A stretch of 32,000 nt of DNA from Acaryochloris marina S15 (GTDB lineage: Bacteria > Cyanobacteriota > Cyanobacteriia > Thermosynechococcales > Thermosynechococcaceae), in contig NZ_CP064923.1 in assembly GCF_018336915.1 (NCBI RefSeq), positions 4,680,001-4,712,000 on the forward strand, written 5' to 3'. Numbering within the stretch: the stretch's first letter is position 1; the number at the start of each line of letters is the position of its first letter. Made by a program: the position numbers and the translations under genes. A model generated the notes under the pieces. It had not been told where the DNA came from. It worked only from the letters and a program-made list of their open reading frames with translations, and did not search any database. Positions 1,399 through 24,479 of this stretch are shown piece after piece.

Positions 1399-3066
1399 TT
1401 ACTGTAATGCTTTGAGATAAGAGGTCATTAGTTGGTAATTGGTCTGATCTTTTTGAGATTGGTAGAAGGCTACCGCTTTTTGGATATCGGCAAATGCTCG
1501 CTGGGGTTGTGCAAACACTTCAGCTAGGAGCGAGCCACGCAGACGATAGGCATTGCCGTCATTGGGATTTCTACGGATCGCTGCATCTGCTTGGGCGAGA
1601 ACGGCGCGACTATTAGGAAAGGCGGCTTGCACATTTTCTTGTACAGCATAGCGTTGAGCCAAGTTGGGATTCGTACTTCTTAACATGCTTTTAGCCAGGA
1701 TAAATTGGGCGAGTTGTTGCTGCTTAAGAGCGATGGCTGAGGCATTCTGAAAGTCTAAGGCAGCACCCTTGGCATCTTGGAGCTGAAGTCGAATGGCCGC
1801 ACTAGATAAGAAATGAGCAAAGGTGTCGGTGCCGGACTGTAATTTTTTAAGTACTGTCAAGCCTTGTTCAATTTTTTTAGCCCCTAGGATGTTGCCTTGG
1901 GATCGCATCAATTTCGCTGTCTGCTGCAGATCTGCCACTGCCCCTGGATAGTCTGCCTGCAAAAACTTGATCGTGCTGCGCAGTCCATAGCCAGATGGAT
2001 GCTGAGGATTTAATCTCAAACCTTGACTAGCATCCGCCAAAGCCCCATCCAATTCACCAATCCTACTGCGCACCAAACCACGGACCACATAGGCTTGCGC
2101 ATTGTCCGGGTCGAGACGAATAGCTTGTTCGCTGTCCGCTAGGGAACTGGATGCTTGGGCCAGCCTGGCATGGGCAAATCCCCGTGCAGAATAGGCTGCG
2201 GAATAATCAGGCTTGAGCTGGATAGCTTGATCGAGATCTGCGATCGCACCTTTGTAGTCTTCTTGCTGAATTTTGGCTTGGGCTTGTAGATACCAGTCAT
2301 CGGCAGTGGTTTGGGAAGGGGGCACTTGAGGTGATGGGGCTTCTACGCCAATATTGATGCCTGCTTGGGGAGCCAAAGTTGTAAACGTATTGATGGGAAT
2401 GCCTAAATTAAATCCGCTCTTAATGTAGATATCAGGATTGAGATTTTGATCCTGAGCTTTGGAAGTGGTATCAGCCCGCCCGTGAATTCCAATTAACTTA
2501 CCGTCGGCATCTAAGACAGGACCGCCACTCATACCGGGTAAGGTGTTGTTGGAATAGACCAAAGCATAGCCATCTGTTAAGGGGCGGCTGGCATTGGCGG
2601 TAATTTTACCTTCCGTAAAGTTATAGATGGTTTCAGAAATAGCTAGGGTACGCAGTGGGAAACCCGCAACATAGCTGCGAGTTCCTTCGGTGACAGAGCC
2701 AGAGCTGCCGATCTCCAGGGCCTGATAGGTGTTGGGACTCTGGAATTGCAGAATCGCCAGGTCAACCCCCGACAACCTTTTGATAGTCTTGGCATTGACT
2801 GCGACCGTCTGACCATCCGGTGTAATCACATCGTAACTATCTTCGGTGGCCACTACATGGGCGGCAGTAAGGACGGTATAGGTGTTGTTATCCCGCTGAA
2901 TAATGACCCCTGACCCCGAGGTCTGACTGACAATCCGAATCGTTGTGCTTTTGGCGAGCTGGTTAATTTCTGGAGCTGTCAGTGCCACTGCGGCAGGAGA
3001 CACAAGACAAATCAGAGGTAGGCTGGAGCCCAATAGGCTGACGTATCTCAGGGTAGACCAATACAT
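1399..3066 (-). CDS. Secreted trypsin-like (S1/S1C) serine protease fused to C-terminal TPR repeats
   Basis: N-terminal hydrophobic signal. Catalytic triad contexts are TAAHVV (His), DLAILQF (Asp) and GMSGGPV (Ser). The C-terminal half has repeated A-x-x-D-x-x-x-A-I-x-L-x-P TPR-like units. Confidence 0.85.
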   Translation of the reverse strand: MYWSTLRYVSLLGSSLPLICLVSPAAVALTAPEINQLAKSTTIRIVSQTSGSGVIIQRDNNTYTVLTAAHVVATEDSYDVITPDGQTVAVNAKTIKRLSGVDLAILQFQSPNTYQALEIGSSGSVTEGTRSYVAGFPLRTLAISETIYNFTEGKITANASRPLTDGYALVYSNNTLPGMSGGPVLDADGKLIGIHGRADTTSKAQDQNLNPDIYIKSGFNLGIPINTFTTLAPQAGINIGVEAPSPQVPPSQTTADDWYLQAQAKIQQEDYKGAIADLDQAIQLKPDYSAAYSARGFAHARLAQASSSLADSEQAIRLDPDNAQAYVVRGLVRSRIGELDGALADASQGLRLNPQHPSGYGLRSTIKFLQADYPGAVADLQQTAKLMRSQGNILGAKKIEQGLTVLKKLQSGTDTFAHFLSSAAIRLQLQDAKGAALDFQNASAIALKQQQLAQFILAKSMLRSTNPNLAQRYAVQENVQAAFPNSRAVLAQADAAIRRNPNDGNAYRLRGSLLAEVFAQPQRAFADIQKAVAFYQSQKDQTNYQLMTSYLKALQ

Positions 3067-3171: not shown

Positions 3172-3678
3172 ATGGTTCTAACAGACCCACAAGCTAGTAA
3201 CTTAGTTGCGATCGCACTCGGTAGCAATCTGGGTGATTCTCGGACGATACTCATGGCTGCGATTGATCAACTCAGCCAAGATCCAAAGATTAAATTACAG
3301 GCCACATCCCATTGGTATCAAACCGCAGCCGTTGGTCCGCCCCAACCGGATTATCTAAATGGGTGTGTCAGTATATTGACGACCTACTCACCCGAAGTTT
3401 TGCTAGAAAAGCTTTTGGCGATTGAATCCCAGTTCGGTCGGGTGCGGCGTGAGCGTTGGGGGCCGCGCACTTTAGATTTGGATGTACTGCTATTTGGGCA
3501 ATCGGTGATTCAGACGCAGACGTTAACGGTGCCCCATCCCTATCTACATGAGCGGGCCTTTGTGTTAGCTCCCTTGGCAGAAATTTGTCCTGGCTGGAAC
3601 CATCCAGTGCTCAAGCAAACCATTGCCGAGCTTGCTAAAGCTGTAGACTATACGGGAGTTCATCGCCTAGCTAATTAG
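3172..3678 (+). CDS. folK: 2-amino-4-hydroxy-6-hydroxymethyldihydropteridine diphosphokinase (HPPK)
   Basis: 168 aa. Typical HPPK motifs are present: AIALGSNLGD, RERWGPRTLDLDVLLF and PHPYLHERAFVLAPLAEI. Confidence 0.9.
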   Translation: MVLTDPQASNLVAIALGSNLGDSRTILMAAIDQLSQDPKIKLQATSHWYQTAAVGPPQPDYLNGCVSILTTYSPEVLLEKLLAIESQFGRVRRERWGPRTLDLDVLLFGQSVIQTQTLTVPHPYLHERAFVLAPLAEICPGWNHPVLKQTIAELAKAVDYTGVHRLAN

Positions 3679-3843
3679 CACCACAGTTGCTAATTAACCT
3701 CTGATTCAAACGGTTCCTAACCTCTCATCAGATAAAGCAGACAATTGCCTGTTGCTTCCTTCTTAGATAGTCCCAAAACCTGGCGTTTTGACCCTTGCAA
3801 GTCTCAAGTTCGAATTCTGACCTCCGACCTAAATATTCAACCC

Positions 3844-4392
3844 ATGTCTTTATTCCAAGAACCCCCTGAAGTCCTGAAGCCGTTGATGTTTTATGACGGT
3901 CGAAAGTATACGTTTGAGGCAAATCGTCTGCGGTTACCGAATGGCAGCGAAGGAGATTGGTCTTGTGTACGGCATCCCGGTGGAGCGATGGCGGTGCCGA
4001 TTACGAATGACGGCAAGTTTGTGCTGGTGAAGCAGTATCGCTTTGCCCTGAAGGGACGGCTATTGGAATTCCCGGCAGGGACAGTGGAAATCCATGAGGA
4101 GCCGGGGGTGACGATTCGGCGGGAGATTGAGGAGGAGACGGGGTATCGAGCCCATAAGTGGCGTAAGTTGGGGGAGTTTCCTTTGGCTCCGGGGTATTCA
4201 GATGAGATTATCTATGCGTTTTTGGCTCAGGAGTTGGAGTTGTTGGAGAATCCGCCGGAGCAGGATGAGGATGAGGATATTGAAACGGTTTTGATGACTC
4301 CTGCGGAGTTTGAACAGGCGATTTTGGCGGGTGAGCCGATTGATGCAAAGTCGATTTGCGGGTTTTATATGGCACGGGCGATGTTGGCCTAA
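3844..4392 (+). CDS. NUDIX hydrolase, NudF-like ADP-ribose pyrophosphatase type
   Basis: Nudix box GTVEIHEEPGVTIRREIEEETGY (GX5EX7REUXEEXGU), with a downstream APGYSDE segment like ADPRases. The ORF track starts at 3745. I prefer ATG 3844 (MSLFQEPPE...) because the upstream 33 codons look non-coding. The start is uncertain. Confidence 0.8.
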   Translation: MSLFQEPPEVLKPLMFYDGRKYTFEANRLRLPNGSEGDWSCVRHPGGAMAVPITNDGKFVLVKQYRFALKGRLLEFPAGTVEIHEEPGVTIRREIEEETGYRAHKWRKLGEFPLAPGYSDEIIYAFLAQELELLENPPEQDEDEDIETVLMTPAEFEQAILAGEPIDAKSICGFYMARAMLA

Positions 4393-4550: not shown

Positions 4551-7430
4551 ATGTTTTGGACAGAAGCAGAACGACGGATTCAAGAGGCAATCAAGCAACA
4601 ATCTGTGTCACTTGATTTATCGGGATTGGAGCTAACAGAAATTTCCAATGCGATCGGACAACTGGTTAACCTACAATCGCTTGACCTACAACAAAATCAA
4701 CTGAACACGATTCCCGATGTGATCGGACAACTGGTTAACCTACAATCGCTTGACCTACAACAGAATCAACTGAACACGATTCCCGATGTGATCGGACAAC
4801 TGGTTAACCTACAATCGCTTGACCTACACAAGAATCAACTGAACACGATTCCCAATGTGATCGGACAACTGGTTAACCTGCAATCGCTTGACCTACAACA
4901 AAATCAACTGAACACAATTCCCAATGTGATCGGACAACTGGTTAACCTGCAATCGCTTGACCTACACAAGAATCAACTGAACACAATTCCCAATGCGATC
5001 GGACAACTGGTTAACCTACAATCGCTTGACCTACAACTAAATCAACTGAACACGATTCCCGATGCGATTGGACAACTGGCAAACCTGCAAACGCTTAACC
5101 TATATGGGAATCAACTGACCACGACTCCTGATGCGGTCGGACAACTGAAAAACCTACAAAAGCTTGACCTAGGCAGTAATCAACTAAACACGATTCCCGA
5201 TGCGATTGGACAACTGGTAAACCTGCAATCACTTGACCTAGATGAGAATCAACTGGCAACGATTCCCGATGCGATTGGACAACTGGCAAACCTGCAAACG
5301 CTCAACCTAGATAGGAATCAACTGGCAACAATTCCCGATGCGATTGGACAACTGGCAAACCTGCAAGAGCTTTACCTACACGGAAATAGTTCACTAAAAA
5401 TTCCGGTAGAGTTGCTGGGCCCTAAATACGGAGAGGTTCACTTTGGAAATGCAAAACCAGCTAAACCACAAAATATCATTGAGTACCTCTTCCGTATTCA
5501 GAAAAAAGCCCAACCCTTGAATGAAGCTAAATTGATTCTGGTGGGCTATGGTGCGGTTGGTAAAACCTCTTTAGTCAACCGATTGGTTCATCAAACCTTT
5601 GATGCAGGTGAGACTAAAACTGAAGGCATTCAAATCACCGATTGGCCGCTTTTCTTGAATGGTAATGAAGATGTCAATTTAAATGTTTGGGATTTTGGAG
5701 GGCAAGAAATCATGCACTCCACCCATCAGTTTTTTCTAACCGAACGGAGTCTGTATCTTTTAGTCCTCAATGGTCGCCAAGGTCATGAAGATGCAGATGC
5801 TGAATATTGGCTAGAACTCATTCAAAGTTTTGGTGGTAACTCTCCCGTCATTGTCGTCCTCAACAAAGTTAAAGAACATCCCTTTGATGTCAACCGCAGT
5901 GGCCTCAAACAAAAATTTCCTAATATCAAAGACTTCATACGTACAGACTGTAAAACGGAGCATGGTCTAGATGAACTCAGCCAAGTTATTGAACGTGAAA
6001 CAGATCGCCTCGAAAATTTGCGCGATTCTTTCCCGTCAAGCTGGTTTGCCATAAAACAGCAGCTAGCAGGTATGAAGGAAAATTACATTCCCTTTGAGAA
6101 ATATCGGAATATTTGTGGTCAAAATGATGAACCCGATCAAGATTCTCAAGATAAACTCGCCTTTTATCTTCACAACTTAGGGATTGCCCTCAACTACAAA
6201 GATGATCCTCGCCTGCGAGATACCAATATTCTCAATCCCCTTTGGGTAACCAATGGCATCTACAAAATTCTCAACGCCCATAATTTAGCAGACCACAAAG
6301 GAGAACTAGATCTTAGCTGCCTTACCCAACTGTTGGATTCGCAAAAATATCCCCGTGAGCGCCACGGCTTCTTGATGGAGCTAATGCGCAAATTCGAGCT
6401 ATGTTTTCCCTTCCAAGACCGTCAAGATCGCTACCTCATCCCAGACTTACTCGACAAACAACAACCACCAGAAGCCGAGGGCTTTATCCTCGAAGACTGC
6501 CTTAATTTTCGCTACGAATATCCCATCTTGCCCGAAGGTTTATTGCCTCGCTTTATTGTCCGCACTAACGTTTTGAGTAGTAACCCAATGCGCTGGCACA
6601 CAGGTGTCATCCTTGATTTTGAAGGCAATCGTGCCCTTGTCAAAGCCGACCAACAAGACCGAAGTGTCACCATCAGCATCAATGGTCCTCAACAGGGGCG
6701 TCGTCGATTGCTCGCCATTATTCGCTCCGATTTTGAGCGCATTCACAGCAGCTTCAAATCAAAACCAGAAGAGAAAGTTCCCATTCCTAACCATCCACAC
6801 CTAAGCCTCACTTACGATGATCTATTGGTAATGGAAAAACAGGGTCTCACTGAAGTCCCTATGGTGATCAATGGAAAAGTCATCCAAATCAATATCAACG
6901 AACTCCTCGACGGCGTTGACCTAGGCCAACCACACCAGGCTGCCAAAGACTCCGAGCATTCTTCTGGAGCATTGAAACTTTTCTATAGCTACTCCCACAC
7001 AGACGAGACGCTTCGCGATCAGCTCAGTCTTCGGCTCAAGATATTCCAACGCAACGGCTTAATTCAAAGTTGGTACGATAGGCAAATCCCTGCAGGTGCC
7101 AAATGGGAAGAAGAATTAGACAGAAATCTAGAACAAGCCGATATTATTCTGCTGTTGCTTAGTCCAGATTTTATAGCATCAGATTACTGCTACGAAGTCG
7201 AATTAGAACGTGCTTTAGAACGTGCCCAATCGAATAAATCAATCGTAATTTCCATTCTCCTCAGACCAGTCAACCAAAAATCACCCCTATTGAAGCATAT
7301 TTTTGCCCTTCAAGCTTTGCCTAGAGATCTCAAACCAGTGACTCAATGGAAAGACTCAGATAATGCTTGGCTCAATATTGAGCAAGAACTAGAACAACTC
7401 ATTCTTGATCGTACAGGCTTTCGACCTTAG
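4551..7430 (+). CDS. ROCO-family multidomain protein: LRR (about 12 x 23 aa), Roc GTPase, COR, C-terminal TIR domain
   Basis: 959 aa. LRR units IPDxIGQLxNLQxLDLxxNQLxT span aa 31-283. Roc motifs are G1 GYGAVGKT (5544-5567) and G3 DFGGQ (5691-5705). A long COR-like helical/winged region follows. The C-terminal approx 150 aa (from 6972) reads LFYSYSHTDETLRDQL...ADIILLLLSPDFIASDYCYEVELERAL, a bacterial TIR_2 pattern with a candidate catalytic Glu at 7194-7196. Confidence 0.9.
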   Translation: MFWTEAERRIQEAIKQQSVSLDLSGLELTEISNAIGQLVNLQSLDLQQNQLNTIPDVIGQLVNLQSLDLQQNQLNTIPDVIGQLVNLQSLDLHKNQLNTIPNVIGQLVNLQSLDLQQNQLNTIPNVIGQLVNLQSLDLHKNQLNTIPNAIGQLVNLQSLDLQLNQLNTIPDAIGQLANLQTLNLYGNQLTTTPDAVGQLKNLQKLDLGSNQLNTIPDAIGQLVNLQSLDLDENQLATIPDAIGQLANLQTLNLDRNQLATIPDAIGQLANLQELYLHGNSSLKIPVELLGPKYGEVHFGNAKPAKPQNIIEYLFRIQKKAQPLNEAKLILVGYGAVGKTSLVNRLVHQTFDAGETKTEGIQITDWPLFLNGNEDVNLNVWDFGGQEIMHSTHQFFLTERSLYLLVLNGRQGHEDADAEYWLELIQSFGGNSPVIVVLNKVKEHPFDVNRSGLKQKFPNIKDFIRTDCKTEHGLDELSQVIERETDRLENLRDSFPSSWFAIKQQLAGMKENYIPFEKYRNICGQNDEPDQDSQDKLAFYLHNLGIALNYKDDPRLRDTNILNPLWVTNGIYKILNAHNLADHKGELDLSCLTQLLDSQKYPRERHGFLMELMRKFELCFPFQDRQDRYLIPDLLDKQQPPEAEGFILEDCLNFRYEYPILPEGLLPRFIVRTNVLSSNPMRWHTGVILDFEGNRALVKADQQDRSVTISINGPQQGRRRLLAIIRSDFERIHSSFKSKPEEKVPIPNHPHLSLTYDDLLVMEKQGLTEVPMVINGKVIQININELLDGVDLGQPHQAAKDSEHSSGALKLFYSYSHTDETLRDQLSLRLKIFQRNGLIQSWYDRQIPAGAKWEEELDRNLEQADIILLLLSPDFIASDYCYEVELERALERAQSNKSIVISILLRPVNQKSPLLKHIFALQALPRDLKPVTQWKDSDNAWLNIEQELEQLILDRTGFRP
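4641..5399 (+). repeat. Tandem 69-bp repeat array (11 units) encoding the LRR domain; units 1-6 (4641-5054) are near-identical at DNA level
   Basis: The units start at 4641, 4710, 4779, 4848, 4917, 4986 and so on. The first six differ only at a handful of sites, in codons 2-4, 11, 17-18 and 23 of each unit. The array is in frame within the ROCO ORF. Confidence 0.9.
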
Positions 7431-8015
7431 CTCCATCCACCCGTTTTCGAACCCCTATATGGGCCACCATCGCACAAAAGATCAAGTGCAATCTTTAGCA
7501 TCTGCTCTACCTAAACTTATGACCATAAGCCTCTGGTGTATCCTGACCGCTTTGCTGGCCCCTTAAGATTCTGTCAGTGCTAGACCAAAGCTGACTATGT
7601 CCAAAATCCACGAGCCTTTAACGAAACCCTCACCGGATGGCACCGCCGCGCCCATCTCGCCCAACTCAATGCTTTTGAGACCTTCCCTAGATTTTCTACA
7701 GCCGTACTCGTGGCCCATTTGACCCAAGTCCCTCAGATTCAAGTCAATACAGTCTATTTCGCATCCTCCACGCCAGCTTCTACATCACCGATGAATCTAA
7801 TCTCCGCAGCCTTAGACAATTGGGCATGCTCTGTATCGTCAGCCTATTTATCCTAGCCGCTATCCCCCAGCCAACCTAATACTCCGCAAGACTGACATCG
7901 TTATTCCCAAACGTAAAACCTTCCGGCTAAAGCCTTGTTGGTAAGATGCTCGTATTTCCCTCTAAACCTGTAGATACAGCAGTATCAAAACCACCAAATT
8001 TAGTCATACTCATTT

Positions 8016-9113
8016 ATGCTCACCCAGAATCGGCAATCGAGTCAGACAAGTCAACCCCGGCCCTTCACTCCCTATCGTCCTCAATATTCAACCCTAAGCT
8101 GGGTCAAACGTAACTTCATCATTGCCAGAGCCTTTCTGGGGGCCATAACCATTGTCTTCAAATCGAGACTGCAAAAACAGTCTCTCCCCTTCGGGGCTTC
8201 CGTAGAAATCACCGATCGCTGCAATGCTGGCTGCCATTATTGCTATGTCTATCCCTCCGACTGGAACCAAACCCAACGAGTCCAAGGGTATCTCCAGCTT
8301 GACCCTGCCGAACATAAAGCCAAAGACCAAGCCATTTACCAAACCCTAGACCAGCTTTCCCGCCAAGGCATGGTCCTCGCCACCCTCGTGGGTGGAGAAC
8401 CCACCTTAGCCCCTAGAGTGATTCAATATGCTGGCCGGAAATTTCCGGTGGTTTGGGTCGTGACCAATGGCTCTGGCAAATTCCCCAAAGTGCCGCGTTC
8501 CGTGGTCTATAGCGTCAGTATCGATGGTCCCCCTGACCACCATAACCAAACCCGAGATCCCCTAGATTTTTTCAAAAACCATACCTACCAAGATCTCCAC
8601 GGCATGGCGGCGGCCATTGTCCGCAATATCAATGAATCCGAGCGAGGTGCATATGCCCACATCACCCTGACCAAATCTAGCCTCGACCTCTTTCCTGAAA
8701 CCGTAGACTGGCTCGTCACCTCTGTCACCAAACTTAGAGGCATCATGGTCTCCGGTGCAGCCACCCAGTCTCCTGACGACCCTAACACCCTCACCCTGAC
8801 GGATCGGCAAACCATGAAGGGGATGATTGAAGCAGCGGCGGTCCAATACGGTTGGGACTTATTTCCCTTTAACCAGCCTGCCGTCAATGCCTACCTCTTT
8901 GATGCGCCCTTCGTGATTCAAAACGCCACCCAATGTACCGTGGCTCGGCGAGTGACCAGCTTGGGCTTTGATGGCCAAAGCGTCGGTAAGTGCATCCTGC
9001 GAGATGCCACAGATTGCCAGACCTGCGTGTGCAATTTGACCGGGTTAATGCGCGGGGTCGCTACAGCAGATCGCCCCAGTTTAAAAGGACTCTATCAAGC
9101 CTGCTTAGGCTAG
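8016..9113 (+). CDS. Radical SAM domain protein with a C-terminal Cys cluster
   Basis: CxxxCxxC motif in EITDRCNAGCHYCYVY, plus a GGEPTL SAM-binding-like motif. The C-terminal sequence CTVARR...GKCILRDATDCQTCVCNLTG suggests an auxiliary Fe-S site. The subfamily was not recognised. Confidence 0.8.
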   Translation: MLTQNRQSSQTSQPRPFTPYRPQYSTLSWVKRNFIIARAFLGAITIVFKSRLQKQSLPFGASVEITDRCNAGCHYCYVYPSDWNQTQRVQGYLQLDPAEHKAKDQAIYQTLDQLSRQGMVLATLVGGEPTLAPRVIQYAGRKFPVVWVVTNGSGKFPKVPRSVVYSVSIDGPPDHHNQTRDPLDFFKNHTYQDLHGMAAAIVRNINESERGAYAHITLTKSSLDLFPETVDWLVTSVTKLRGIMVSGAATQSPDDPNTLTLTDRQTMKGMIEAAAVQYGWDLFPFNQPAVNAYLFDAPFVIQNATQCTVARRVTSLGFDGQSVGKCILRDATDCQTCVCNLTGLMRGVATADRPSLKGLYQACLG

Positions 9114-11003
9114 AGTGGCCTTGCTCAGATAGCTCTGGTATCGCACCTGCAATTGCTCGACCCTCACCTTGCCAGACCAAAACTCCACCATGGTTTGGCC
9201 AAAGGCCCAGGCATCTTCCTTAATCGAGGGAGCCGTTTCTAGCAGCAGCGGCCACAGGGACAAAAAATCAAAGACAGGATGAGCATCAGGTTCAGCAAGC
9301 AACGTAAATAACTCATAGCCCATCTGTAGCTTCCCCATCACGACAGGGGCCTGCTCAATGGGCAGTTGAGTTGCCAGGGCTGTTGCTAAGGCTGGAGAAC
9401 CCGTCGTCATCGTCGATAGAAAGCCTAAAACCGGACTCTTAAGCAGAGCCGCAAGTCCCTGGGTCGTGCTCATTTGGGAGGCATACTGATTGATGATTTT
9501 GGCAGAAGTGGTGATACGGGTGGTGCGATCGCGCAAAAATCTCGCCATTCGGGCCTGCTTTGCCGGGTCAGATTCATCCACCATCGCTGCCGACAGTTCC
9601 GTCCCTCCCCAAGCTGGCCGATCCTGGCTCCTATCCTCTGTGACCATCGGCAAAATTGCCGCCGAGAGTTCCCCCAAAATCTCTTGACGATAGGCAATCG
9701 CCTCACGAATCGAGTTCTCCTTGGGTTGGTCACCGGATCGCCAATCGTAGGGTGGAGACCATTCTCGAATCGGTCGTAGCCGATCCACCTGAGTGACGAT
9801 GCTAATGATGGGCAGATCATCCACTTGGGTTGTGATCTCTTCTAAAAACGCCAGATCCATTTGCAGGGCTGGATCCGTCGCCGGTGTGACCAACAACAGC
9901 AAATCCGCCTCAGCTGCTTTCTCGATCACTGCTTGGCGTAGATCATCTCTTCCACTTTGCTCATACCCCGGTGAATCCCAGAGAATGAGAGTTTCATCTA
10001 GATCATTCTGGAAAGGGTAAGACTGCAAGGTGTCCGTACTGGGTAACACATCTACGGCTGCTGTCTGTCGGCCAAACAGGGTATTCACCAGGCTACTCTT
10101 GCCTGCCCCTGTACGTCCAACCAAGAGCACATTCAAGGGAGCCTGCTCTACGGTCTCGGCAGGCGCGGCTTCCGTAATAATCCCTTGTAGGGTTTGAGTC
10201 TCGGCCTCTGGTAGTTTTAGCTCCAGGCTCTCCAAGGAGCGCACCGCTTCGCCACCGTAGAGGGCAATCGCTCGTTCCCCGAGGGCCTGCAAAGTGGTCT
10301 CTCGCACAATCTGCCCTAAGTTGGCCAGTAACTGTTGATTGGCCTGAGTCCGATAGGTTTGGGTAGAGGTGCGGGTCAAGGCTGCCACCGGATTAAAAAT
10401 CCACCGGGACCATTGCCACACTTTGACGACCGTGCGGGCAGCCGGCTCTAATTTTCGATAGGTTTCGTAGGTTTCGTAGGCTTGTCCCACGGTCACCTGC
10501 CCCAGCACAGGGGAAAGCTTTTGCATCCACTGATCCACATCGTCCACGGTGCCCCGCAATAAACCATAGGCATCTGGCACATAGATATTCAGAAAGGGCC
10601 GTTTGGTAGTGGGGTAGTAGACATGGGCAATCGCCTCAATCAAGGTTTGGCAGCGGCGAAAGAACTGAGCCCAATCTTCCCAGGGCAAGACATCTTCCCG
10701 AGCAGCGACCAGAATCGTTTGAATTTCGGCTTCGGCCTGTTCCCGGCGGGGCTGACCTGCCCTGGGAGTCTCTGCAGCATTGTCTTGAATAAAGGCTCTG
10801 GCCTCTGCAGCAATCTGATCTGGCAACCGCACCCAGCGAGCCAGTAAATATCGCCAACCGACAAACACCAAAACCACCACAGCCCAAATCCAACTCAGTC
10901 CCCACTGATGGATTTGCAGCCCAGCTGCAACACCGAGAAATCCGAGCACGCTAACGACGGGTAAGGCCAAGATGACCCACTGCCAGACCTTGAGACGAAT
11001 CAT
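9105..11003 (-). CDS. Membrane-anchored P-loop GTPase family protein
   Basis: 632 aa with two N-terminal TM helices. G1 is LLVGRTGAGKSSLVNTLFG, G3 is WDSPGY and G4-like is TQVD. The 3' end overlaps the convergent radical SAM gene by 9 nt (9105-9113). Confidence 0.75.
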   Translation of the reverse strand: MIRLKVWQWVILALPVVSVLGFLGVAAGLQIHQWGLSWIWAVVVLVFVGWRYLLARWVRLPDQIAAEARAFIQDNAAETPRAGQPRREQAEAEIQTILVAAREDVLPWEDWAQFFRRCQTLIEAIAHVYYPTTKRPFLNIYVPDAYGLLRGTVDDVDQWMQKLSPVLGQVTVGQAYETYETYRKLEPAARTVVKVWQWSRWIFNPVAALTRTSTQTYRTQANQQLLANLGQIVRETTLQALGERAIALYGGEAVRSLESLELKLPEAETQTLQGIITEAAPAETVEQAPLNVLLVGRTGAGKSSLVNTLFGRQTAAVDVLPSTDTLQSYPFQNDLDETLILWDSPGYEQSGRDDLRQAVIEKAAEADLLLLVTPATDPALQMDLAFLEEITTQVDDLPIISIVTQVDRLRPIREWSPPYDWRSGDQPKENSIREAIAYRQEILGELSAAILPMVTEDRSQDRPAWGGTELSAAMVDESDPAKQARMARFLRDRTTRITTSAKIINQYASQMSTTQGLAALLKSPVLGFLSTMTTGSPALATALATQLPIEQAPVVMGKLQMGYELFTLLAEPDAHPVFDFLSLWPLLLETAPSIKEDAWAFGQTMVEFWSGKVRVEQLQVRYQSYLSKATLA

Positions 11004-18198: not shown

Positions 18199-19305
18199 TT
18201 ATTGCATTGTGACCATGCTCAGTTCCTCTGCTAATGCTAGAGTCTCTGCTACATACTCAGAGTAGTAAGTATTTCTATTCCGTTGATCAAATTGTTCTGC
18301 TAATGCGATCGCATGTTGGTTGAACCAAGCTTGTAACCCATCCAGGTCATAACACCCGTCTACTTGCCACAAGGCAAAATCTTGAGGTAACCGAGCTTTA
18401 ATAGAGCGACGCCCCGCACAGATCAATTGTTGGGTTAGGAGGTGGCAAGCCGCATAAAAATGTAGCTGGTTCAGAGGAATGGAACTCTTAAGCGCCATGG
18501 GTAGATGGCGCTCTAGCAGTGTCACTGCTCGCTCTAAATTACCGATCACGGATAAGTAGATAATGTGAATGCCATGTTCCTTCACAAAGTTGGGATTCTG
18601 GGCAATGCGCTGATACCCCAGGCGATGGAACTCTTGAGCCTCCGCTAACTTGTTCAGACGCAGGGCAGGAAGAAGCAGCACCGCATAGGTCAAATGTGGA
18701 ACTTCAGCACAACGCTTTCCACCAGACAGTATCGGTTCTGCATATTCAAAGGCATCTTCTAGACGACCAAGATGAGTGAGCACGATGACTGACTCGTTAA
18801 TATCACAGGCATGGCAATCCGACACGGTATCACGAGCTTGGAGCGGCCACTCCTGGTAGGCTAGTGCAGCTTCAGACAAATGTCCCATTACGGCATACCC
18901 CGCTGCTTTTCGTTGATAGTAAACACGTGAGCTGTAGCCCGCTGCCTGAAAGCGTCTTCCCAAGTCTTCCAATAGCTCATCAAACTGTGCCAGGCTAATA
19001 CCAGGACACTCACTACAGGCTGCAACTATCCACTTATACATCCACAATAGATGACGCAAATCAAAGCGATTGGGATTGGCATCTGCTTGAGCTAGACACC
19101 AGGCAAATGCGGGGATAGATAAGTCTGGCCGACCGCGAAAAGCACTGCAGCTGATTAGTTCTTCACGGGCTGCGTACCCTCGGTCTAGATCATTGATCTG
19201 ATCTGCTAGGGCAATGGCCTGTTTTGCCAGAGAAATTTTTAGAGACCCTTTGGGTTGGTTGGTACATTCATAGAGCAGCTCATCAATCTGTTCAGTCATA
19301 CTCAT
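18199..19305 (-). CDS. Hypothetical all-helical (TPR-like) Cys-rich protein, operon partner of the HSP90 paralog
   Basis: 368-aa ORF that starts 2 nt after the HSP90-family stop (TAG-CT-ATG at 19303-19310). It has helical-repeat character and several Cys, including SDCHACD. I recognise no family. Confidence 0.6.
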   Translation of the reverse strand: MSMTEQIDELLYECTNQPKGSLKISLAKQAIALADQINDLDRGYAAREELISCSAFRGRPDLSIPAFAWCLAQADANPNRFDLRHLLWMYKWIVAACSECPGISLAQFDELLEDLGRRFQAAGYSSRVYYQRKAAGYAVMGHLSEAALAYQEWPLQARDTVSDCHACDINESVIVLTHLGRLEDAFEYAEPILSGGKRCAEVPHLTYAVLLLPALRLNKLAEAQEFHRLGYQRIAQNPNFVKEHGIHIIYLSVIGNLERAVTLLERHLPMALKSSIPLNQLHFYAACHLLTQQLICAGRRSIKARLPQDFALWQVDGCYDLDGLQAWFNQHAIALAEQFDQRNRNTYYSEYVAETLALAEELSMVTMQ

Positions 19306-19307
19306 AG

Positions 19308-21146
19308 CTATTGCATTCCATTAAGACTGGCTAAATTCAAACTCATATCAATGAGACCCAGCAGCCCTTTATTCATTAGCTTGATTTCTCGGTGACCTAA
19401 AGGATACTGACCTAATAGCAAAGCTTGAACATAGAGCATCTGCACAACCCGCTCTTGCAGCGCTCGGTCTGGCAAGTCCACCATACGCAGAAACGTTTCA
19501 TTGTCGAAGTTAAAACAGAGTCGGGAGTGGGCTTGGAATTCAATGCCTTGGGCAATTCCATCTAGCACATTGGAAAATAAGTCATTGCTAATATCCTTAG
19601 TACGACTAATCGATCGCAAAGTTTCTGCGGCTTCATTTTGTAAATAGATAGCCGGAAGATCGACCGGTTTAAAGCGACGTGCTTCAGTTTGGACGCCAAA
19701 CGGTTGCAACACGACATCGGCTAAGCGCAAAAAGTCATGAACGCGATCTCGCTCTGTGAGGGACAGTTCTTCAAATGCTTCGCTCAACTCAGCCGGATCT
19801 ATGACTTCAAAAGAGATATCCGAGAAAAGAGCCGTGGCCCGGTCTAAGATTTCTGTATCGTGGGTATAGCCCGCATTAATCACCAACATGGACTGGGCTG
19901 TAGCAACACTAGCTATCTGGCGAAACCGATCAACCGTGTTCACGAAGCATACGGTTTGTCTATTTTCCCGGATCTCTTGGCCTGTCATCCTACCCAAGGA
20001 GGTTTCAAAGGGCAGCCAATTGAAGAAGAGGCGCAATAGATCATCATTCTCAACGGCAAGGGCTTTCAAGGCCGGATAATGCAAGGAGATTAACCGTTGG
20101 AGACGTGCTGAATCTGTCTCTGCCAACCCAATCAGATATTGCTTTAAGGCTTGCCCCAAAGCATTTCGAACCTGATCTAGATCTTCATTCTCGTAGAGGT
20201 CTTCACGGGATGCGGTGGGACGTAGCGTACGAGCATCGACCACACAGCGGACAAAAAAGGCCCAATCTGGCAGCAGTTTTTTGGATGCTTCTGAAACCAG
20301 CATGCCTTTGATATATACGCGATGGCTGGGAGTAGATCCAACCGTGCCACTATTCGCTAGGACATAAGCGACCCCCTCAACGCCTTCAGCAATGGAGGGT
20401 AAAGGGATAGCATCGAAAAATTTTTCGCCTAATAACCGTTCGCCATAGGCTAACGTTTCCTGACGCCATTGTTCATCGGTGCAGCCTTTGCGCCAGGGTG
20501 GAACATCATTCAAACCAATTGTTTTCTGGTTGGCTGATAACTCCAGCGCCATAGGCAATAGGCCACCATAGTGGCGAACCAATACCTCTAAAGATTTAAC
20601 GGACAGCAATTCTTGACACCCAGGTCGAGCCACCAAATACACTCGGGTCCCAGGCTTGAGATCTCGTTCCAGAGTGCGAACCTTGTAGGTGCCATCAGGT
20701 TTACCGCGCCATTCGACTGGCGGTGCTTCTGGATGACGAGCTGATTTTGTAACAATGGCAATTTCTTCACTGACCATAAAGCAGCTCAATAAGCCAATCC
20801 CAAACTGGCCGATAAAGGTGCTTCTTTGCTCAGACAGTTCGCCTCGCTTGGAGCTTTTACCAATCGTAGCTAGGAATTCATGAACTTCGGCCTCGGTCAA
20901 ACCTACGCCATCATCTTCGACCATGAGGGTGGGTGTACCATCTTCACTATCCACGACTTCAATCAGGACGCGGCCCAAATGGTTAGGCTGAATTAGCCGC
21001 CGGGCTTCTATGGCATCAACCGCATTTTGAAGCAGTTCTCGGATATAGACCCGTGGGTCACTATAAAGGTGGTTAGAAAGAAGTTCAATCATGCCCCCCA
21101 GATTGACCTGGAAGCAGTGTTCTTGTGCTGCTTGGGAATGAATCAT
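19308..21146 (-). CDS. HSP90-family protein (non-canonical HtpG paralog, GHKL ATPase)
   Basis: Motifs: LYSDPRVYIRELLQNAVDA (Hsp90 motif ELxxNAxDA), VEDDGVGLT (DxGxG) and FIGQFGIGLLSCFMV (GQFGxG). At 612 aa it is divergent outside the N-domain. Confidence 0.85.
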   Translation of the reverse strand: MIHSQAAQEHCFQVNLGGMIELLSNHLYSDPRVYIRELLQNAVDAIEARRLIQPNHLGRVLIEVVDSEDGTPTLMVEDDGVGLTEAEVHEFLATIGKSSKRGELSEQRSTFIGQFGIGLLSCFMVSEEIAIVTKSARHPEAPPVEWRGKPDGTYKVRTLERDLKPGTRVYLVARPGCQELLSVKSLEVLVRHYGGLLPMALELSANQKTIGLNDVPPWRKGCTDEQWRQETLAYGERLLGEKFFDAIPLPSIAEGVEGVAYVLANSGTVGSTPSHRVYIKGMLVSEASKKLLPDWAFFVRCVVDARTLRPTASREDLYENEDLDQVRNALGQALKQYLIGLAETDSARLQRLISLHYPALKALAVENDDLLRLFFNWLPFETSLGRMTGQEIRENRQTVCFVNTVDRFRQIASVATAQSMLVINAGYTHDTEILDRATALFSDISFEVIDPAELSEAFEELSLTERDRVHDFLRLADVVLQPFGVQTEARRFKPVDLPAIYLQNEAAETLRSISRTKDISNDLFSNVLDGIAQGIEFQAHSRLCFNFDNETFLRMVDLPDRALQERVVQMLYVQALLLGQYPLGHREIKLMNKGLLGLIDMSLNLASLNGMQ

Positions 21147-21450: not shown

Positions 21451-21678
21451 TCAAAAGCTTTGATTAGTGAAATGATGGTGGATTTTTCTGCCCCATTTTT
21501 TTATCAAGGTAGCAGCGATATCCACCATATTGGGGTCAAACGTGCTGATATAGCTTGTTAAACCTTCATCTAAAGGCTGTGAACTGAGTTGAGAAAGGAT
21601 TATCTCAGAATTGTCTTGCGTAGATAGAGTCTCTAGCAAATAGGCTTGAAAATCAGCGAGGTCTTGCTCTGGCATCAT
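21451..21678 (-). CDS. Small (75 aa) partner protein of the MNIO enzyme (function unknown; possibly MbnC/DUF2063-N-like)
   Basis: ATG 21678 overlaps the MNIO TGA (ATGATG at 21673-21678). The sequence begins MMPEQDLADFQAYLLETLSTQDN... The track ORF (21451-21822) extends 148 nt into the MNIO gene, so I prefer the coupled start. Confidence 0.5.
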   Translation of the reverse strand: MMPEQDLADFQAYLLETLSTQDNSEIILSQLSSQPLDEGLTSYISTFDPNMVDIAATLIKKWGRKIHHHFTNQSF

Positions 21679-24256: not shown

Positions 24257-24271
24257 AGTGCTTGATATAAA

Positions 24272-24399: not shown

Positions 24400-24479
24400 A
24401 AAGGTAAAAAAGTCTGACAAGCCAGGTAAACGTATCAATCGTTTGATAATTCTATAGGCATGAAATTTTTTTCAAAAAG

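What the first reader, a model, noticed from the sequence alone, without database searches (positions are those of the whole stretch)
4551..7430. Single-polypeptide LRR-Roc-COR-TIR protein: candidate GTPase-switched TIR immune sensor
The sequence shows a sensor-like LRR solenoid, a Ras-of-complex GTPase with P-loop and DxxGQ, a COR dimerisation region, and a complete C-terminal TIR_2-type domain. The TIR domain retains the Glu context (DYCYEVELE) used by NADase TIRs. Known bacterial TIR immunity couples TIR to SIR2/SLOG partners or to STAND ATPases (Thoeris, TIR-STAND/Avs, bNACHT). Here a ROCO GTPase, the LRRK2-type switch, occupies the place of the NTPase. That gives an LRR-switch-TIR logic analogous to plant TNLs but with reversed domain order. 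Repeat + NTPase + effector architectures have been catalogued computationally in multicellular bacteria. To my knowledge a Roc-COR-gated TIR has not been characterised experimentally.
Basis: partly seen in the sequence, partly recalled or inferred. Interest (0 to 1): 0.7.

Follow-up and report, generated by a model that had tools for sequence, protein, structure and literature searches.

The report
ROCO GTPase fused to TIR enzyme
This is a real, intact gene for a large cyanobacterial protein that joins a leucine-rich-repeat sensor, an LRRK2-like GTPase switch and a TIR NAD-cleaving domain; computer surveys already listed this design in 2021 as a probable anti-virus sensor, nobody has tested it, and this strain has lost the small membrane protein that sits beside the gene in sister strains.

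Summary
ORF 4551-7430 (+) encodes a 959-aa LRR-Roc-COR-A-COR-B-TIR protein of Acaryochloris marina (WP_212662944.1), with strong profile hits and a confident AlphaFold model.

- **Not new:** Kaur et al. 2021 (eLife, PMC8195603) describe "AP-GTPase-centred counter-invader systems" with TIR among the C-terminal effectors. Their source data list the syntenic MBIC11017 orthologue (WP_012162488.1) as LRR+AP-GTPase+COR+TIR.
- **Untested:** I found no experimental paper on this architecture.
- **Catalytic Glu corrected:** the family-invariant Glu that aligns with the catalytic Glu of AbTir and plant TIRs is E884 (nt 7200-7202).
- **Context:** the flanking genes are housekeeping. No partner gene is conserved across 83 loci.
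- **Fast, mosaic evolution:** LRR copy number differs between strains and the COR-B/TIR half is far more diverged than the Roc half.
- **Lost neighbour:** in other Acaryochloris genomes a ~150-aa 3-TM gene lies directly downstream. Elsewhere that gene usually pairs with ThsB-type TIR genes, as a Thoeris-like effector would. It is deleted in this window.
- **GTPase pocket:** the family lacks the NKxD Asp and carries a conserved Asp in G5.

The most likely role is a GTPase-switched TIR immune sensor that stands alone in this strain.

The parts
4551..7430 (+). Complete ORF, 959 aa: an LRR-Roc-COR-A-COR-B-TIR protein (WP_212662944.1 / QUY41747.1, Acaryochloris marina).
4602..5429 (+). LRR solenoid, about 12 repeats of 23 aa (residues 18-293). 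Within this protein variation is greatest at repeat positions 7-8 of LxxLxLxxN. Across 700 repeats from homologues it is greatest at positions 3, 8, 7, 13, 5 and 2.
4641..5380 (+). Tandem DNA repeat that underlies the LRRs: 69-bp unit, 10.7 copies, 87% matches. The first six units are 86-99% identical to each other, which points to recent unit duplication. Sister strains carry 5 fewer units (842 aa) or the same number (958 aa).
5511..6020 (+). Roc (Ras-of-complex / AP-GTPase) domain, residues 321-490. It deviates at none of the 91 family columns that are at least 90% conserved.
5544..5567 (+). P-loop / G1 motif, GYGAVGKT (332-339). The Gly residues and K338 are invariant in 120 homologues; T339 is T117/S3.
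5691..5705 (+). Switch II / G3 motif, DFGGQ (381-385). D, F, G384 and Q are invariant; G383 is conserved in 119 of 120.
5862..5873 (+). Atypical G4 motif, NKVK (438-441). The guanine-specificity Asp of NKxD is replaced. At this position the family has K61, Q10, E8, N8, R8 and only D2.
5943..5951 (+). G5 region, T-D-C (465-467). D466 is conserved (D115/E3). Rocos that keep NKxD have Ser here (T/I-S-C). D466 is a candidate relocated base-recognition carboxylate.
6033..6452 (+). COR-A domain (residues 495-634).
6495..6914 (+). COR-B domain (residues 649-788), the dimerisation module in CtRoco.
6915..6971 (+). Linker between COR-B and TIR (residues 789-807). Residues 794-804 have pLDDT below 50, so the tether is probably flexible.
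6972..7415 (+). TIR domain (residues 808-955): βA 808-813, BB loop about 842-851, αC 878-893, βD 898-903, αE 936-955.
7200..7202 (+). E884, the family-invariant Glu in helix αC. It aligns with the catalytic Glu of AbTir, plant TIR and Cat1 and is the correct site for an E-to-A mutant.
7203..7489 (.). Breakpoint region. Nucleotide homology to the MBIC11017-type locus stops at 7202 and resumes at 7490. The 960 bp of the sister locus replaced here include the ~150-aa 3-TM gene, which is absent from the window.

Best explanation
The gene encodes an intact single-polypeptide sensor-switch-effector protein of the prokaryotic ROCO family. It belongs to the published class of 'AP-GTPase-centred counter-invader systems'.

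Proposed mechanism; every step below is inferred, none is shown here:
1. The N-terminal LRR solenoid holds the protein closed, recognises an invader-derived or stress-derived protein, or does both.
2. The Roc-COR module is a nucleotide-dependent conformational and oligomeric switch, as in C. tepidum Roco and LRRK2.
3. The TIR domain hangs on a flexible ~15-residue tether from the COR-B dimerisation domain. It becomes active only when two or more TIRs are brought together to form composite active sites around E884.
4. The active TIR then cleaves NAD+.

No partner gene is conserved across the family, and the neighbouring 3-TM gene of sister strains is deleted here. In this strain the output is therefore most likely direct NAD+ consumption that leads to growth arrest (abortive infection).

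The sequence directly shows the architecture, intact G1/G2/G3 motifs, the catalytic-type Glu and purifying selection on Roc-COR-TIR. Inference covers the ligand, the direction of the nucleotide switch, NADase activity and the phage-defence phenotype.
For: - **Architecture and intact motifs:**
- **Catalytic-type TIR:** TIR fold with invariant E884 aligned to the catalytic Glu of AbTir, plant TIR and Cat1.
- **Purifying selection:** against the syntenic A. marina orthologue, dN/dS is 0.08 for Roc, 0.12 for COR-A, 0.10 for COR-B and 0.14 for TIR, against 0.54 for the LRRs.
- **Conflict-gene signatures:**
  - LRR copy number differs between strains (842 vs 958/959 aa).
  - Near-identical 69-bp repeat units underlie the LRRs.
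  - Divergence is mosaic. Roc is 92% identical to MBIC11017, COR-B is closest (91%) to a third strain, and the TIR is at most 69% identical to any of the 119 best full-length homologues.
  - dS is 1.6-2.1 for COR-B/TIR, against 0.4-0.8 for most neighbouring genes.
  - Distribution is patchy: at least 469 species-level genomes across Cyanobacteriota, Acidobacteriota, Chloroflexota, Planctomycetota, Chlorobi and Bacteroidota.
  - 2,108 representative clusters match COR-B+TIR at E<=1e-30.
- **Shared effector TIR:** the same TIR clade (~50% identity) serves in EAD1-TIR, EAD7-TIR and TIR-NB-ARC proteins, and in an NB-ARC / TIR / TPR operon on an Acaryochloris plasmid.
- **No conserved neighbour:** the most frequent neighbour cluster occurs in 11 of 83 loci and is a generic histidine-kinase family.
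- **Published prediction of the same role:** PMC8195603.
Against: - There is no defence island. The neighbours are BtpA, HPPK, NUDIX, radical SAM, a large GTPase, DUF760, an aldo-keto reductase and riboflavin synthase.
- The gene is syntenic in at least four Acaryochloris genomes, and local synteny is also seen in Nodosilinea and Acidobacteriota clades. That is more stable than typical mobile defence genes.
- No COR-TIR copy was found on plasmids or phages.
- CtRoco goes from dimer to monomer on GTP binding (established literature, from my own knowledge). TIR enzymes need assembly, so the direction of gating is unclear.
- The NKxD Asp is missing.
- The 3-TM neighbour in sister strains argues that the lineage's TIR output may be a signal rather than NAD+ depletion.
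- No biochemical or phenotypic data exist.
Confidence: 0.45

Rival explanations
1. ROCO-Thoeris with a lost effector. In the Acaryochloris lineage the ROCO-TIR plays the ThsB role: it is the sensor and also makes an ADPR-derived signal. The ~150-aa 3-TM protein encoded directly downstream is the signal-gated membrane effector. In the window strain that effector gene has been deleted. The ROCO-TIR would then be an orphaned signal generator. It could be non-protective on its own, or it could signal to an unlinked effector.
For: - **The pairing with ROCO-TIR:** the 3-TM gene lies immediately downstream of ROCO-TIR in A. marina MBIC11017 and AP026075 (L005, L001), in Acaryochloris sp. IP29b (L004), in a further Acaryochloris-type contig (L091) and in a Leptolyngbya MAG (L017).
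- **The pairing with ThsB-type TIR genes:** the same family sits next to small ThsB_TIR genes in 7 of the 9 non-ROCO loci shown (6 of 8 proteins looked up).
  - ThsB_TIR then 3-TM in Nodosilinea and in a Burkholderiales MAG.
  - ThsB_TIR, 3-TM, ThsB_TIR inside a type I R-M operon.
  - ThsB_TIR then 3-TM beside a methyltransferase/NotI pair, in two near-identical loci.
  - 3-TM then a 228-aa ThsB_TIR protein in two Firmicutes.
  - Sources.
- **Candidate defence status:** PADLOC scores the 3-TM protein as candidate defence component PDC-M50A (2.3e-26).
- **Loss in the window:** the window lacks the gene and the next gene, MAPEG, is a pseudogene. Homology to sister loci breaks inside the TIR at nt 7202.
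- **Atypical TIR C-terminal half:** the window TIR deviates at three near-invariant columns, A897S, P901S and W909Q. Only 3 of 119 homologues deviate that much in this half.
- **ThsB-like TIR:** it scores 4.7e-42 on a PADLOC ThsB model.
Against: - Only 4 of the 83 loci in the cluster analysis (5 ROCO-TIR loci counting L091; these are four Acaryochloris loci plus one Leptolyngbya) carry the 3-TM gene. The family as a whole works without it.
- The window ORF is intact. It has a canonical catalytic Glu, no deviations in the TIR N-terminal half and none in Roc.
- The TIRs that partner the 3-TM gene elsewhere are PF08937-type, not this TIR_2 clade.
- No signal molecule or effector activation has been measured.
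Confidence: 0.25
2. Non-immune signalling protein. The ROCO-TIR is a vertically inherited regulator, for example of stress-induced or developmental cell death or of NAD+ homeostasis. It would respond to an endogenous cue rather than to an invader.
For: - Housekeeping neighbours and stable synteny within Acaryochloris, Nodosilinea and some Acidobacteriota.
- Strong purifying selection on Roc-COR-TIR.
- No mobile-element genes, tRNA or Rfam hits nearby.
- Eukaryotic ROCO proteins such as LRRK2 and DAPK1 are mainly signalling proteins (established knowledge).
Against: - Between two strains of one species the protein is 75% identical, against 88-98% for most neighbours. The mosaic COR-B/TIR part has dS of 1.6-2.1.
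- LRR copy number varies.
- Distribution across phyla is patchy, and some genomes hold several paralogues (L050/L070, L052/L053).
- Split ORFs occur in several genomes.
- The TIR clade is shared with NB-ARC, EAD and CHAT conflict-system operons.
Confidence: 0.15
3. The TIR is a non-catalytic assembly or adaptor module, or the gene is drifting towards loss in this strain, so that no NAD+ chemistry is involved.
For: - Many animal TIRs act as scaffolds (established knowledge).
- Relative to canonical TIRs there is a one-residue insertion between the SDYCY motif and the Glu.
- Three near-invariant TIR positions are changed in this allele.
Against: - E884 is conserved in 118 of 120 homologues and in all 57 sequences of the TIR-clade alignment.
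- The ORF is full length with a confident fold.
- dN/dS for the TIR is 0.14.
Confidence: 0.05

Closest known systems
AP-GTPase-centred prokaryotic counter-invader systems (Kaur, Iyer, Burroughs, Aravind, eLife 2021, PMC8195603, Fig. 6D and source data)
   Same: The architecture is identical: fast-evolving N-terminal LRRs, AP-GTPase (= Roc), COR, and a variable C-terminal effector that includes TIR. [quoted passage not shown]
   Different: Nothing differs in kind. This allele has 5 more LRRs, a strongly diverged COR-B/TIR half, and has lost the TM+TM+TM neighbour. The published class is a computational prediction without experiments.
Chlorobium tepidum Roco and Methanosarcina barkeri Roco2 (structural models of bacterial and archaeal ROCO; PDB 3DPU, 6HLU, 8R4B, 4WNR)
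   Same: LRR-Roc-COR core: E 9.4e-93 to MbRoco2 and ~1e-68 to CtRoco, with 6HLU the best fold match. The P-loop, the DxxGQ motif and the COR-A/COR-B order are the same.
   Different: None of the CtRoco and MbRoco2 matches above extends into the TIR region of this protein; here the domain after COR-B is a TIR. Those proteins have a canonical NKID G4 with Ser in G5. This family has NK[IV]x plus Asp in G5.
Human LRRK2 / LRRK1 / DAPK1 (eukaryotic ROCO proteins)
   Same: An LRR-Roc-COR module followed by an enzymatic output domain, giving the logic 'GTPase switch controls a C-terminal enzyme' (E ~1e-27).
   Different: The output is a TIR rather than a kinase. There are no ANK, ARM or WD40 domains. 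The protein has 959 residues against more than 2,000.
Thoeris (ThsB TIR sensor plus a signal-activated effector; types I-XI, Yirmiya et al. bioRxiv 2025)
   Same: The TIR scores 4.7e-42 on a PADLOC ThsB model. In sister strains a small TM protein lies directly downstream, and elsewhere that protein pairs with ThsB_TIR genes.
   Different: The window has no adjacent effector. The TIR is the C-terminus of a 959-aa ROCO protein, not a small ThsB. The Thoeris survey discarded stand-alone TIR proteins and does not mention Roc, LRR or GTPase.
TIR-STAND proteins (Avs/AVAST TIR, bacterial TIR-NB-ARC) and plant TNL receptors
   Same: Repeat sensor plus NTPase switch plus TIR effector. The same TIR clade (~50% identity) occurs fused to NB-ARC and in NB-ARC/TIR/TPR operons.
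   Different: The NTPase is a Ras-like GTPase with COR, not a STAND ATPase. The domain order is LRR-NTPase-TIR, the reverse of plant TIR-NB-ARC-LRR.
Characterised catalytic TIRs: Cat1 (9MUD), AbTir (7UWG/7UXU), SARM1, plant RPP1 and AtTIR
   Same: TIR fold (TM-score ~0.6) and a catalytic-type Glu in αC aligned with E884.
   Different: Foldseek fold matches are at most 22% identical. There is a one-residue insertion before the Glu (SDYCYE-V-E against SDWCWD-E). Neither activity nor product is known.

Membership tests
ROCO protein family | A Roc (Ras-like) G domain immediately followed by COR-A and COR-B | tested here: met
   Pfam Roc 2e-29, COR-A 1.9e-44, COR-B 9.6e-33. PDB MbRoco2 9.4e-93 and CtRoco ~1e-68. 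Best fold match is 6HLU.
ROCO protein family | Intact nucleotide-binding motifs G1 (GxxxxGKT/S), G2 Thr and G3 (DxxGQ) | tested here: met
   GYGAVGKT 332-339, T357, DFGGQ 381-385. Invariant or nearly invariant (at least 117 of 120) across 120 homologues.
ROCO protein family | Canonical G4 NKxD, whose Asp gives guanine specificity | tested here: not met
   The window has NKVK. At the Asp position the family shows K61, Q10, E8, N8, R8 and D2. A conserved Asp appears instead in G5 (T-D-C). This is a family-level variant and not grounds to exclude membership.
ROCO protein family | GTP binding and hydrolysis, and a nucleotide-dependent dimer-monomer cycle | not testable with these tools
   Needs biochemistry.
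AP-GTPase-centred counter-invader systems (Kaur et al. 2021) | N-terminal LRRs + AP-GTPase + COR + a variable C-terminal effector domain from the conflict-system repertoire | tested here: met
   Architecture. The text names TIR among the effectors. The syntenic orthologue WP_012162488.1 is listed with this architecture.
AP-GTPase-centred counter-invader systems (Kaur et al. 2021) | Rapidly evolving LRRs and lineage-specific diversification | tested here: met
   LRR dN/dS is 0.54 against 0.08-0.14 for the other domains, although repeat alignment is ambiguous. LRR motif matches range from 0 to 20 per homologue, and low counts include truncated proteins. There is a 5-repeat difference between strains.
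Catalytic (NADase-type) TIR domains | TIR flavodoxin-like fold | tested here: met
   Pfam TIR_2 1.4e-14. TIR-only model pLDDT 91.4. Foldseek hits to RPP1, SARM1, AbTir, MAL and SPARTA TIRs, probability 1.00.
Catalytic (NADase-type) TIR domains | Conserved catalytic Glu in helix αC | tested here: met
E884 is conserved in 118 of 120 homologues and in all 57 sequences of the TIR-clade alignment. It aligns with the YEL Glu of AbTir, the DEL Glu of plant AtTIR and the Cat1 Glu.
Catalytic (NADase-type) TIR domains | NAD+ cleavage activity that depends on TIR self-association | not testable with these tools
   Needs an enzyme assay. No multimer modelling was available.
Thoeris | ThsB-like TIR protein | tested here: inconclusive
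   PADLOC ThsB1 PDLC00420 scores 4.7e-42 on the TIR domain. Pfam ThsB_TIR (PF08937) was not among the hits listed at E<=0.1, and the protein is a 959-aa ROCO.
Thoeris | An adjacent effector gene (ThsA or another Ths effector) in the same operon | tested here: not met
   No effector-like gene flanks the ORF in the window. The 3-TM gene present in sister strains is absent here. No neighbour is conserved across 83 loci.
STAND NTPase immune sensors (Avs, bNACHT, TIR-NB-ARC) and plant TNLs | A STAND-type ATPase domain (NB-ARC or NACHT) | tested here: not met
   The only NTPase domain is Ras-like Roc.
Defence-island-encoded system | Enrichment next to known defence genes | tested here: not met
   The window neighbours are housekeeping genes. 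Among 148 nearest neighbours from 50 loci no PADLOC family is hit by more than 3 and no Pfam family by more than 6; PIN 5, Uma2 3, DUF1016 3. This is a small sample with crude ORF calling, not a formal enrichment test.

The most novel reading that the evidence does not exclude
'ROCO-Thoeris'. In the Acaryochloris lineage a Roc-COR GTPase switch gates a TIR that synthesises an ADPR-derived second messenger. That messenger opens the ~150-aa 3-TM protein encoded immediately downstream. The 3-TM family otherwise pairs with ThsB-type TIR genes (PADLOC candidate PDC-M50A). The window strain would then be a natural effector-deletion allele. In addition, the family's relocated base-recognition Asp (G4 NKxD lost, G5 T-D-C gained) could change which nucleotide the switch reads. 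Neither point appears in the literature I could search.
Probability: 0.25. Interest if true: 0.7.

Novelty: already known. Interest (0 to 1): 0.42.

Why it matters
The architecture is already catalogued, so its existence is not news. Its value is as an experimental opportunity.

1. Bacterial ROCO models studied so far, such as CtRoco and MbRoco2, have been studied as LRR-Roc-COR cores without an assayable enzymatic output (my own knowledge of the field). How the Roc nucleotide state is transmitted to an output, the central LRRK2 question, therefore cannot be read out in them. A ROCO with a C-terminal TIR gives a simple NAD+ assay for that coupling.
2. It would add a Ras-like GTPase to the list of NTPase switches shown to control TIR enzymes. 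That list is so far made of STAND ATPases and cyclic-nucleotide or oligonucleotide sensors.
3. The Acaryochloris strains form a natural series: 5 fewer or the same number of LRRs, diverged TIRs, and presence or absence of the 3-TM neighbour. This series can test whether such TIRs signal or deplete.
4. The loss of the NKxD Asp together with the gain of a G5 Asp is a concrete, testable variation of the GTPase base-recognition pocket.

Tried and rejected
- **Thoeris proper.** There is no ThsA or other effector next to the gene in the window.
- **Defence island.** The neighbours are housekeeping genes. The PADLOC hits on the neighbours are low-scoring partial matches (E 3e-12 to 5e-07) covering only part of each model (protease, radical SAM, GTPase), which I read as generic domain similarity.
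- **Conserved partner gene.** All-vs-all clustering of ORFs from 83 loci found nothing in more than 11 loci. The top clusters are generic: histidine kinase, ABC ATPase, SSF symporter and hydrolases.
- **NUDIX as a functional partner** (for example an ADPR hydrolase). It is adjacent only through Acaryochloris synteny. It sits beside HPPK, which fits folate metabolism.
- **Plasmid or phage carriage of COR-TIR.** Plasmids match only the TIR part, and phages do not match at all.
- **Promoter and terminator scan.** The number of sites does not exceed the shuffle expectation, so it is uninformative.
- **Rfam and tRNA scans.** Nothing found.
- **The 3-TM protein as a recognised Pfam family such as SLATT.** No hit even at E 0.5.
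- **Decay of the TIR after effector loss.** Only 3 atypical residues, the catalytic half is canonical and the ORF is intact, so there is no convincing degeneration.
- **Literature search for experimental ROCO-TIR work.** None found. Subscription-only papers are not covered.

Full report
**1. The observation**

The ORF listing shows one long ORF at exactly 4551..7430 on the + strand (ATG, 959 aa; translation).

Pfam hits:
- LRR families over residues ~1-285 (LRR_14 1.2e-44, LRR_8 7.8e-41)
- Roc 327-440 (2e-29)
- COR-A 495-634 (1.9e-44)
- COR-B 649-788 (9.6e-33)
- TIR_2 811-919 (1.4e-14)

PADLOC's ThsB1 model PDLC00420 hits residues 809-951 at 4.7e-42. NCBIfam adds only generic LRR and small-GTPase matches.

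Against solved structures, the Roc-COR part matches M. barkeri Roco2 (4WNR, 9.4e-93), C. tepidum Roco (3DPU/6HLU/8R4B, ~1e-68) and LRRK2 (~1e-27). The TIR matches Cat1 (1.1e-05) and an AbTir-like TIR (4e-04).

An AlphaFold2 model built from 66 homologues has mean pLDDT 87.8 and pTM 0.71. Only the 794-804 linker falls below 50. Its best PDB fold match is the CtRoco LRR-Roc-COR crystal structure. A TIR-only model (pLDDT 91.4) matches plant RPP1 and RPPT, MAL, TIR-1/SARM1, AbTir and SPARTA TIR domains.

**2. Identity and organism**

The protein is 100% identical to WP_212662944.1 / QUY41747.1, annotated 'COR domain-containing protein [Acaryochloris marina]', on a 5.88-Mb contig.

**3. Motifs**

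I aligned 120 homologues; by Pfam annotation all but P0110 and P0113 carry a TIR.

- The P-loop Gly residues and K338, and D381, F382, G384 and Q385 of DFGGQ, are invariant. T339 is T117/S3 and G383 is conserved in 119 of 120.
- The switch-I Thr (T357) is conserved in 119 of 120.
- The G4 motif is NK[IV]x. The Asp of NKxD, which reads the guanine base in Ras-like GTPases (established knowledge), is replaced here by Lys. At that position the family shows K61, Q10, E8, N8, R8 and only D2.
- The G5 segment reads T-D-C, with D466 conserved (D115/E3).
- The two closest Rocos without a TIR (P0110, P0113) have NKxD together with T-S-C, and MbRoco2 and CtRoco have NKID with I-S-C.
- In more distant COR-TIR representatives, 41 of 48 have T-D-C and 8 of 48 still keep the G4 Asp.

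I read this as a relocated base-recognition carboxylate. D466 sits at the position of Ras S145, which contacts D119 (my own knowledge). Nucleotide specificity is untested.

In the TIR, E884 is conserved in 118 of 120 homologues. A profile of the TIR clade aligned to PDB chains puts the invariant Glu on AbTir 'YEL', AtTIR 'DEL' and Cat1 'D-EL'. The catalytic-type Glu is E884 (7200-7202). Relative to canonical TIRs there is a one-residue insertion just before it.

**4. Prior knowledge**

[quoted passage not shown] That protein is P0004, the syntenic orthologue in A. marina MBIC11017. The architecture string occurs 556 times in that file, about 278 proteins if each row holds it twice.

A red-alga TPR-ROCO-TIR is also mentioned in PMC11378527.

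I found no experimental study of a Roc-COR-TIR protein. The 2025 systematic Thoeris survey removed stand-alone TIR proteins and never mentions Roc, LRR or GTPase. The architecture itself is already known.

**5. Distribution**

The best 80 are mostly filamentous cyanobacteria, with Acidobacteriota, Chloroflexota, Planctomycetota, Chlorobiaceae, Bacteroidota, Latescibacterota and others at 44-67% identity. Some genomes carry two copies.
- A full HMMER scan of 1.84 billion cluster representatives found 2,108 at E<=1e-30.
- Phage records have no match.
- Plasmids match only the TIR part at 43-51% identity. Examples are an NB-ARC / x-TIR / TPR operon on A. marina plasmid pREB7 and a TIR / CHASE2 / DUF928 / CHAT cluster on a Calothrix plasmid.
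- The same TIR clade (~50% identity) also occurs as EAD1-TIR, EAD7-TIR and TIR-NB-ARC.

The TIR is therefore a shuffled effector module of the 'multicellular-bacteria' conflict systems.

**6. Genomic context**

In the window the gene is flanked by these genes:

| Coordinates | Strand | Gene |
|---|---|---|
| 334-1197 | - | BtpA |
| 1399-3066 | - | trypsin-TPR protein |
| 3172-3678 | + | HPPK |
| 3745-4392 | + | NUDIX |
| 8016-9113 | + | radical-SAM protein |
| 9105-11003 | - | large GTPase |
| further downstream | | DUF760, an aldo-keto reductase, BFN, riboflavin synthase |

The PADLOC hits on these neighbours are low-scoring partial matches (E 3e-12 to 5e-07) covering only part of each model, which I read as generic domain similarity. 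This is not a defence island.

Across 83 loci, clustering of all flanking ORFs found no family in more than 11 loci, and the top families are generic. Among 148 nearest neighbours from 50 loci, the commonest Pfam families are SSF symporter (6, from Nodosilinea synteny), PIN (5), DUF1016, Uma2 and trypsin-PDZ (3 each). No PADLOC family is hit by more than 3. The family is thus a single-gene unit in variable but not classically defensive surroundings.

**7. Micro-evolution within Acaryochloris**

The same BtpA-HPPK-NUDIX-[ROCO-TIR]-...-radical SAM-GTPase-DUF760 synteny is found in three places:
- A. marina AP026075/MBIC11017 (L001/L005)
- Acaryochloris sp. IP29b (L004)
- a further assembly (L091)

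Against L001, most neighbours are 88-98% identical in protein with dS of 0.4-0.8. The ROCO-TIR is 75% identical.

| Domain | Identity | dS | dN/dS |
|---|---|---|---|
| Roc | 92% | 0.55 | 0.08 |
| COR-A | 84% | 0.75 | 0.12 |
| COR-B | 74% | 1.6 | 0.10 |
| TIR | 61% | 2.1 | 0.14 |
| LRR | 71%, with a 115-residue length difference | 0.42 | 0.54 |

- COR-B is closest (91%) to the L091 allele, whose Roc is only 77% identical.
- The TIR is at most 69% identical to any of the 119 best full-length homologues.
- The LRRs are encoded by a 69-bp tandem repeat (10.7 copies, 87% matches). The first six units are 86-99% identical to each other.
- Within the protein, variation is greatest at repeat positions 7-8.
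- Across 700 repeats from homologues, positions 3, 8, 7, 13, 5 and 2 are the most variable, mostly the x positions of LxxLxLxxN. This is expected of any LRR and fits a variable binding face.

Overall, purifying selection acts on every catalytic or structural domain. It is combined with repeat turnover and intragenic recombination. That pattern is typical of immune receptors but is not proof of one.

**8. The missing neighbour**

In the four other Acaryochloris loci and in one Leptolyngbya MAG (L017), a ~150-aa protein with three predicted TM helices lies directly downstream of the ROCO-TIR. The TM+TM+TM annotation comes from the Kaur et al. table.

In the window, nucleotide homology to L001 stops inside the TIR at 7202 and resumes at 7490. 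The 960 bp of L001 that lie between these points, which include the 3-TM gene, are replaced in the window by 287 bp (7203-7489). tblastn finds no copy anywhere in the 32 kb. The next gene, MAPEG, is a pseudogene split over three frames with an in-frame stop (7519-7870).

The 3-TM family comprises 337 clusters at 90% identity, from cyanobacteria, Firmicutes and Burkholderiales. It has no Pfam family. It hits PADLOC candidate PDC-M50A at 2.3e-26.

I looked up eight family members outside ROCO loci, which gave nine loci. Seven of the nine place the gene beside a small ThsB_TIR gene:

| Locus | Arrangement |
|---|---|
| L089 | ThsB_TIR then 3-TM, overlapping |
| L090 | ThsB_TIR then 3-TM, next to an integrase |
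| L094 | ThsB_TIR, 3-TM, ThsB_TIR inside a type I R-M operon |
| L095, L096 | ThsB_TIR then 3-TM, beside a methyltransferase and NotI |
| L087, L093 | 3-TM then a 228-aa protein that passes the ThsB_TIR cut-off |
| L088, L092 | no adjacent TIR gene seen |

This is the signature of a Thoeris-like effector. The ancestral Acaryochloris arrangement therefore looks like a ROCO-TIR paired with a TIR-signal-responsive membrane protein, and the window strain has lost the latter.

The window's TIR is still largely canonical. It has 0 deviations in 30 conserved columns of the N-terminal half. In the C-terminal half it has 3 (A897S, P901S, W909Q), a level that only 3 of 119 homologues reach. Roc has 0 deviations in 91 columns.

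**9. Mechanism**

I favour a stand-alone GTPase-switched TIR sensor (confidence 0.45). The LRRs act as ligand-binding or autoinhibitory module, Roc-COR as the nucleotide-dependent conformational and oligomeric switch, and the tethered TIRs form E884-centred composite active sites on assembly and consume NAD+.

The stand-alone reading follows from the absence of any conserved partner in 79 of 83 loci. It also follows by analogy with other sensor-fused bacterial TIRs that deplete NAD+ (established knowledge: TIR-STING, TIR-SAVED, SPARTA, Cat1).

Rivals:
- **Orphaned ROCO-Thoeris signal generator (0.25).** Supported by section 8.
- **Non-immune regulator (0.15).** Supported by housekeeping synteny and weakened by the mosaic, patchy evolution.
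- **Non-catalytic or decaying TIR (0.05).**

An unresolved point is the polarity of gating. CtRoco is dimeric when nucleotide-free or GDP-bound and monomerises with GTP (literature, my own knowledge). TIR catalysis needs self-association. The TIR follows the COR-B dimerisation domain through a ~15-residue flexible linker.

**10. Verdict**

- The functional reading is reasonable but unproven.
- The novelty claim is overstated, because the architecture, and the orthologous locus itself, are in a 2021 catalogue.

Noticed in passing
L001 12770-13216; L004 2431-2928; L017 2348-2797; L091 9137-9586 (absent from window 7431-8015): A ~150-aa 3-TM protein lies directly downstream of ROCO-TIR in sister Acaryochloris genomes and in one Leptolyngbya MAG. 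The family has no Pfam model and hits PADLOC PDC-M50A at 2.3e-26. In 7 of the 9 non-ROCO loci examined it is adjacent to small ThsB_TIR genes, once inside a type I R-M operon. It looks like an undescribed or newly described Thoeris-type membrane effector.
   Followed up: yes
window 7519-7870 (+): MAPEG-family pseudogene. It is homologous to the intact 130-aa gene of sister strains but is split over three reading frames with an in-frame stop. It lies next to the deletion that removed the 3-TM gene.
   Followed up: partly
window 5862-5873 and 5943-5951: The Roc G4 motif lacks the NKxD Asp (NKVK), and G5 carries a conserved Asp (T-D-C). The two close Rocos without a TIR, and MbRoco2 and CtRoco, have NKxD with Ser in G5. 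This may be a relocated guanine-recognition carboxylate or an altered nucleotide specificity.
   Followed up: partly
window 1399-3066 (-): A 555-aa trypsin-like protease with TPR repeats is inserted between BtpA and HPPK in this strain only. In L001 and L091 BtpA and HPPK are adjacent. Trypsin is one of the effector domains of the same class of conflict systems.
   Followed up: partly
window 3172-3678 (+): HPPK is a divergence outlier between A. marina strains: 77% identity and dS 2.4, against 0.4-0.8 for most neighbours. Recombination seems to affect the whole HPPK to ROCO-TIR stretch.
   Followed up: no
window 18199-21146 (-): A 612-aa GHKL/HSP90-like ATPase (HATPase_c_3 1.9e-10, with weak PADLOC TmtA ATPase-domain hits) is followed by a 368-aa ORF with no family. 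They may form a two-gene unit. Larger HSP90-like ATPases (883-884 aa) also sit next to the 3-TM gene (with ThsB_TIR in L089) in L088 and L089.
   Followed up: no
window 24000-26400: An AT-rich patch (GC 0.31-0.36 against ~0.48 elsewhere) contains two ORFs with no family (24480-25301 and 25839-26399, both on the - strand). It is probably horizontally acquired DNA.
   Followed up: no
window 21675-22577 (-): An MbnB/TglH/ChrH-family RiPP precursor-modifying enzyme (5.8e-36). It suggests a small peptide-natural-product locus.
   Followed up: no
L028, L038, L049, L059, L065, L082: In several genomes the ROCO-TIR reading frame is split into two or more ORFs. These may be pseudogenes, although assembly errors in MAGs cannot be excluded. 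L028 (Nodosilinea nodulosa PCC 7104) is an isolate genome.
   Followed up: no
P0241, P0242, P0253: Very large proteins (1,564-1,928 aa) carry 5-6 tandem copies of this TIR clade.
   Followed up: no
window 7239-7241, 7251-7253, 7275-7277 (S897, S901, Q909): This allele departs from residues that are at least 90% conserved in the family (A897, P901, W909) in the βD/αD region of the TIR, next to the homology breakpoint at 7202. Only 3 of 119 homologues deviate as much in the C-terminal half of the TIR.
   Followed up: partly
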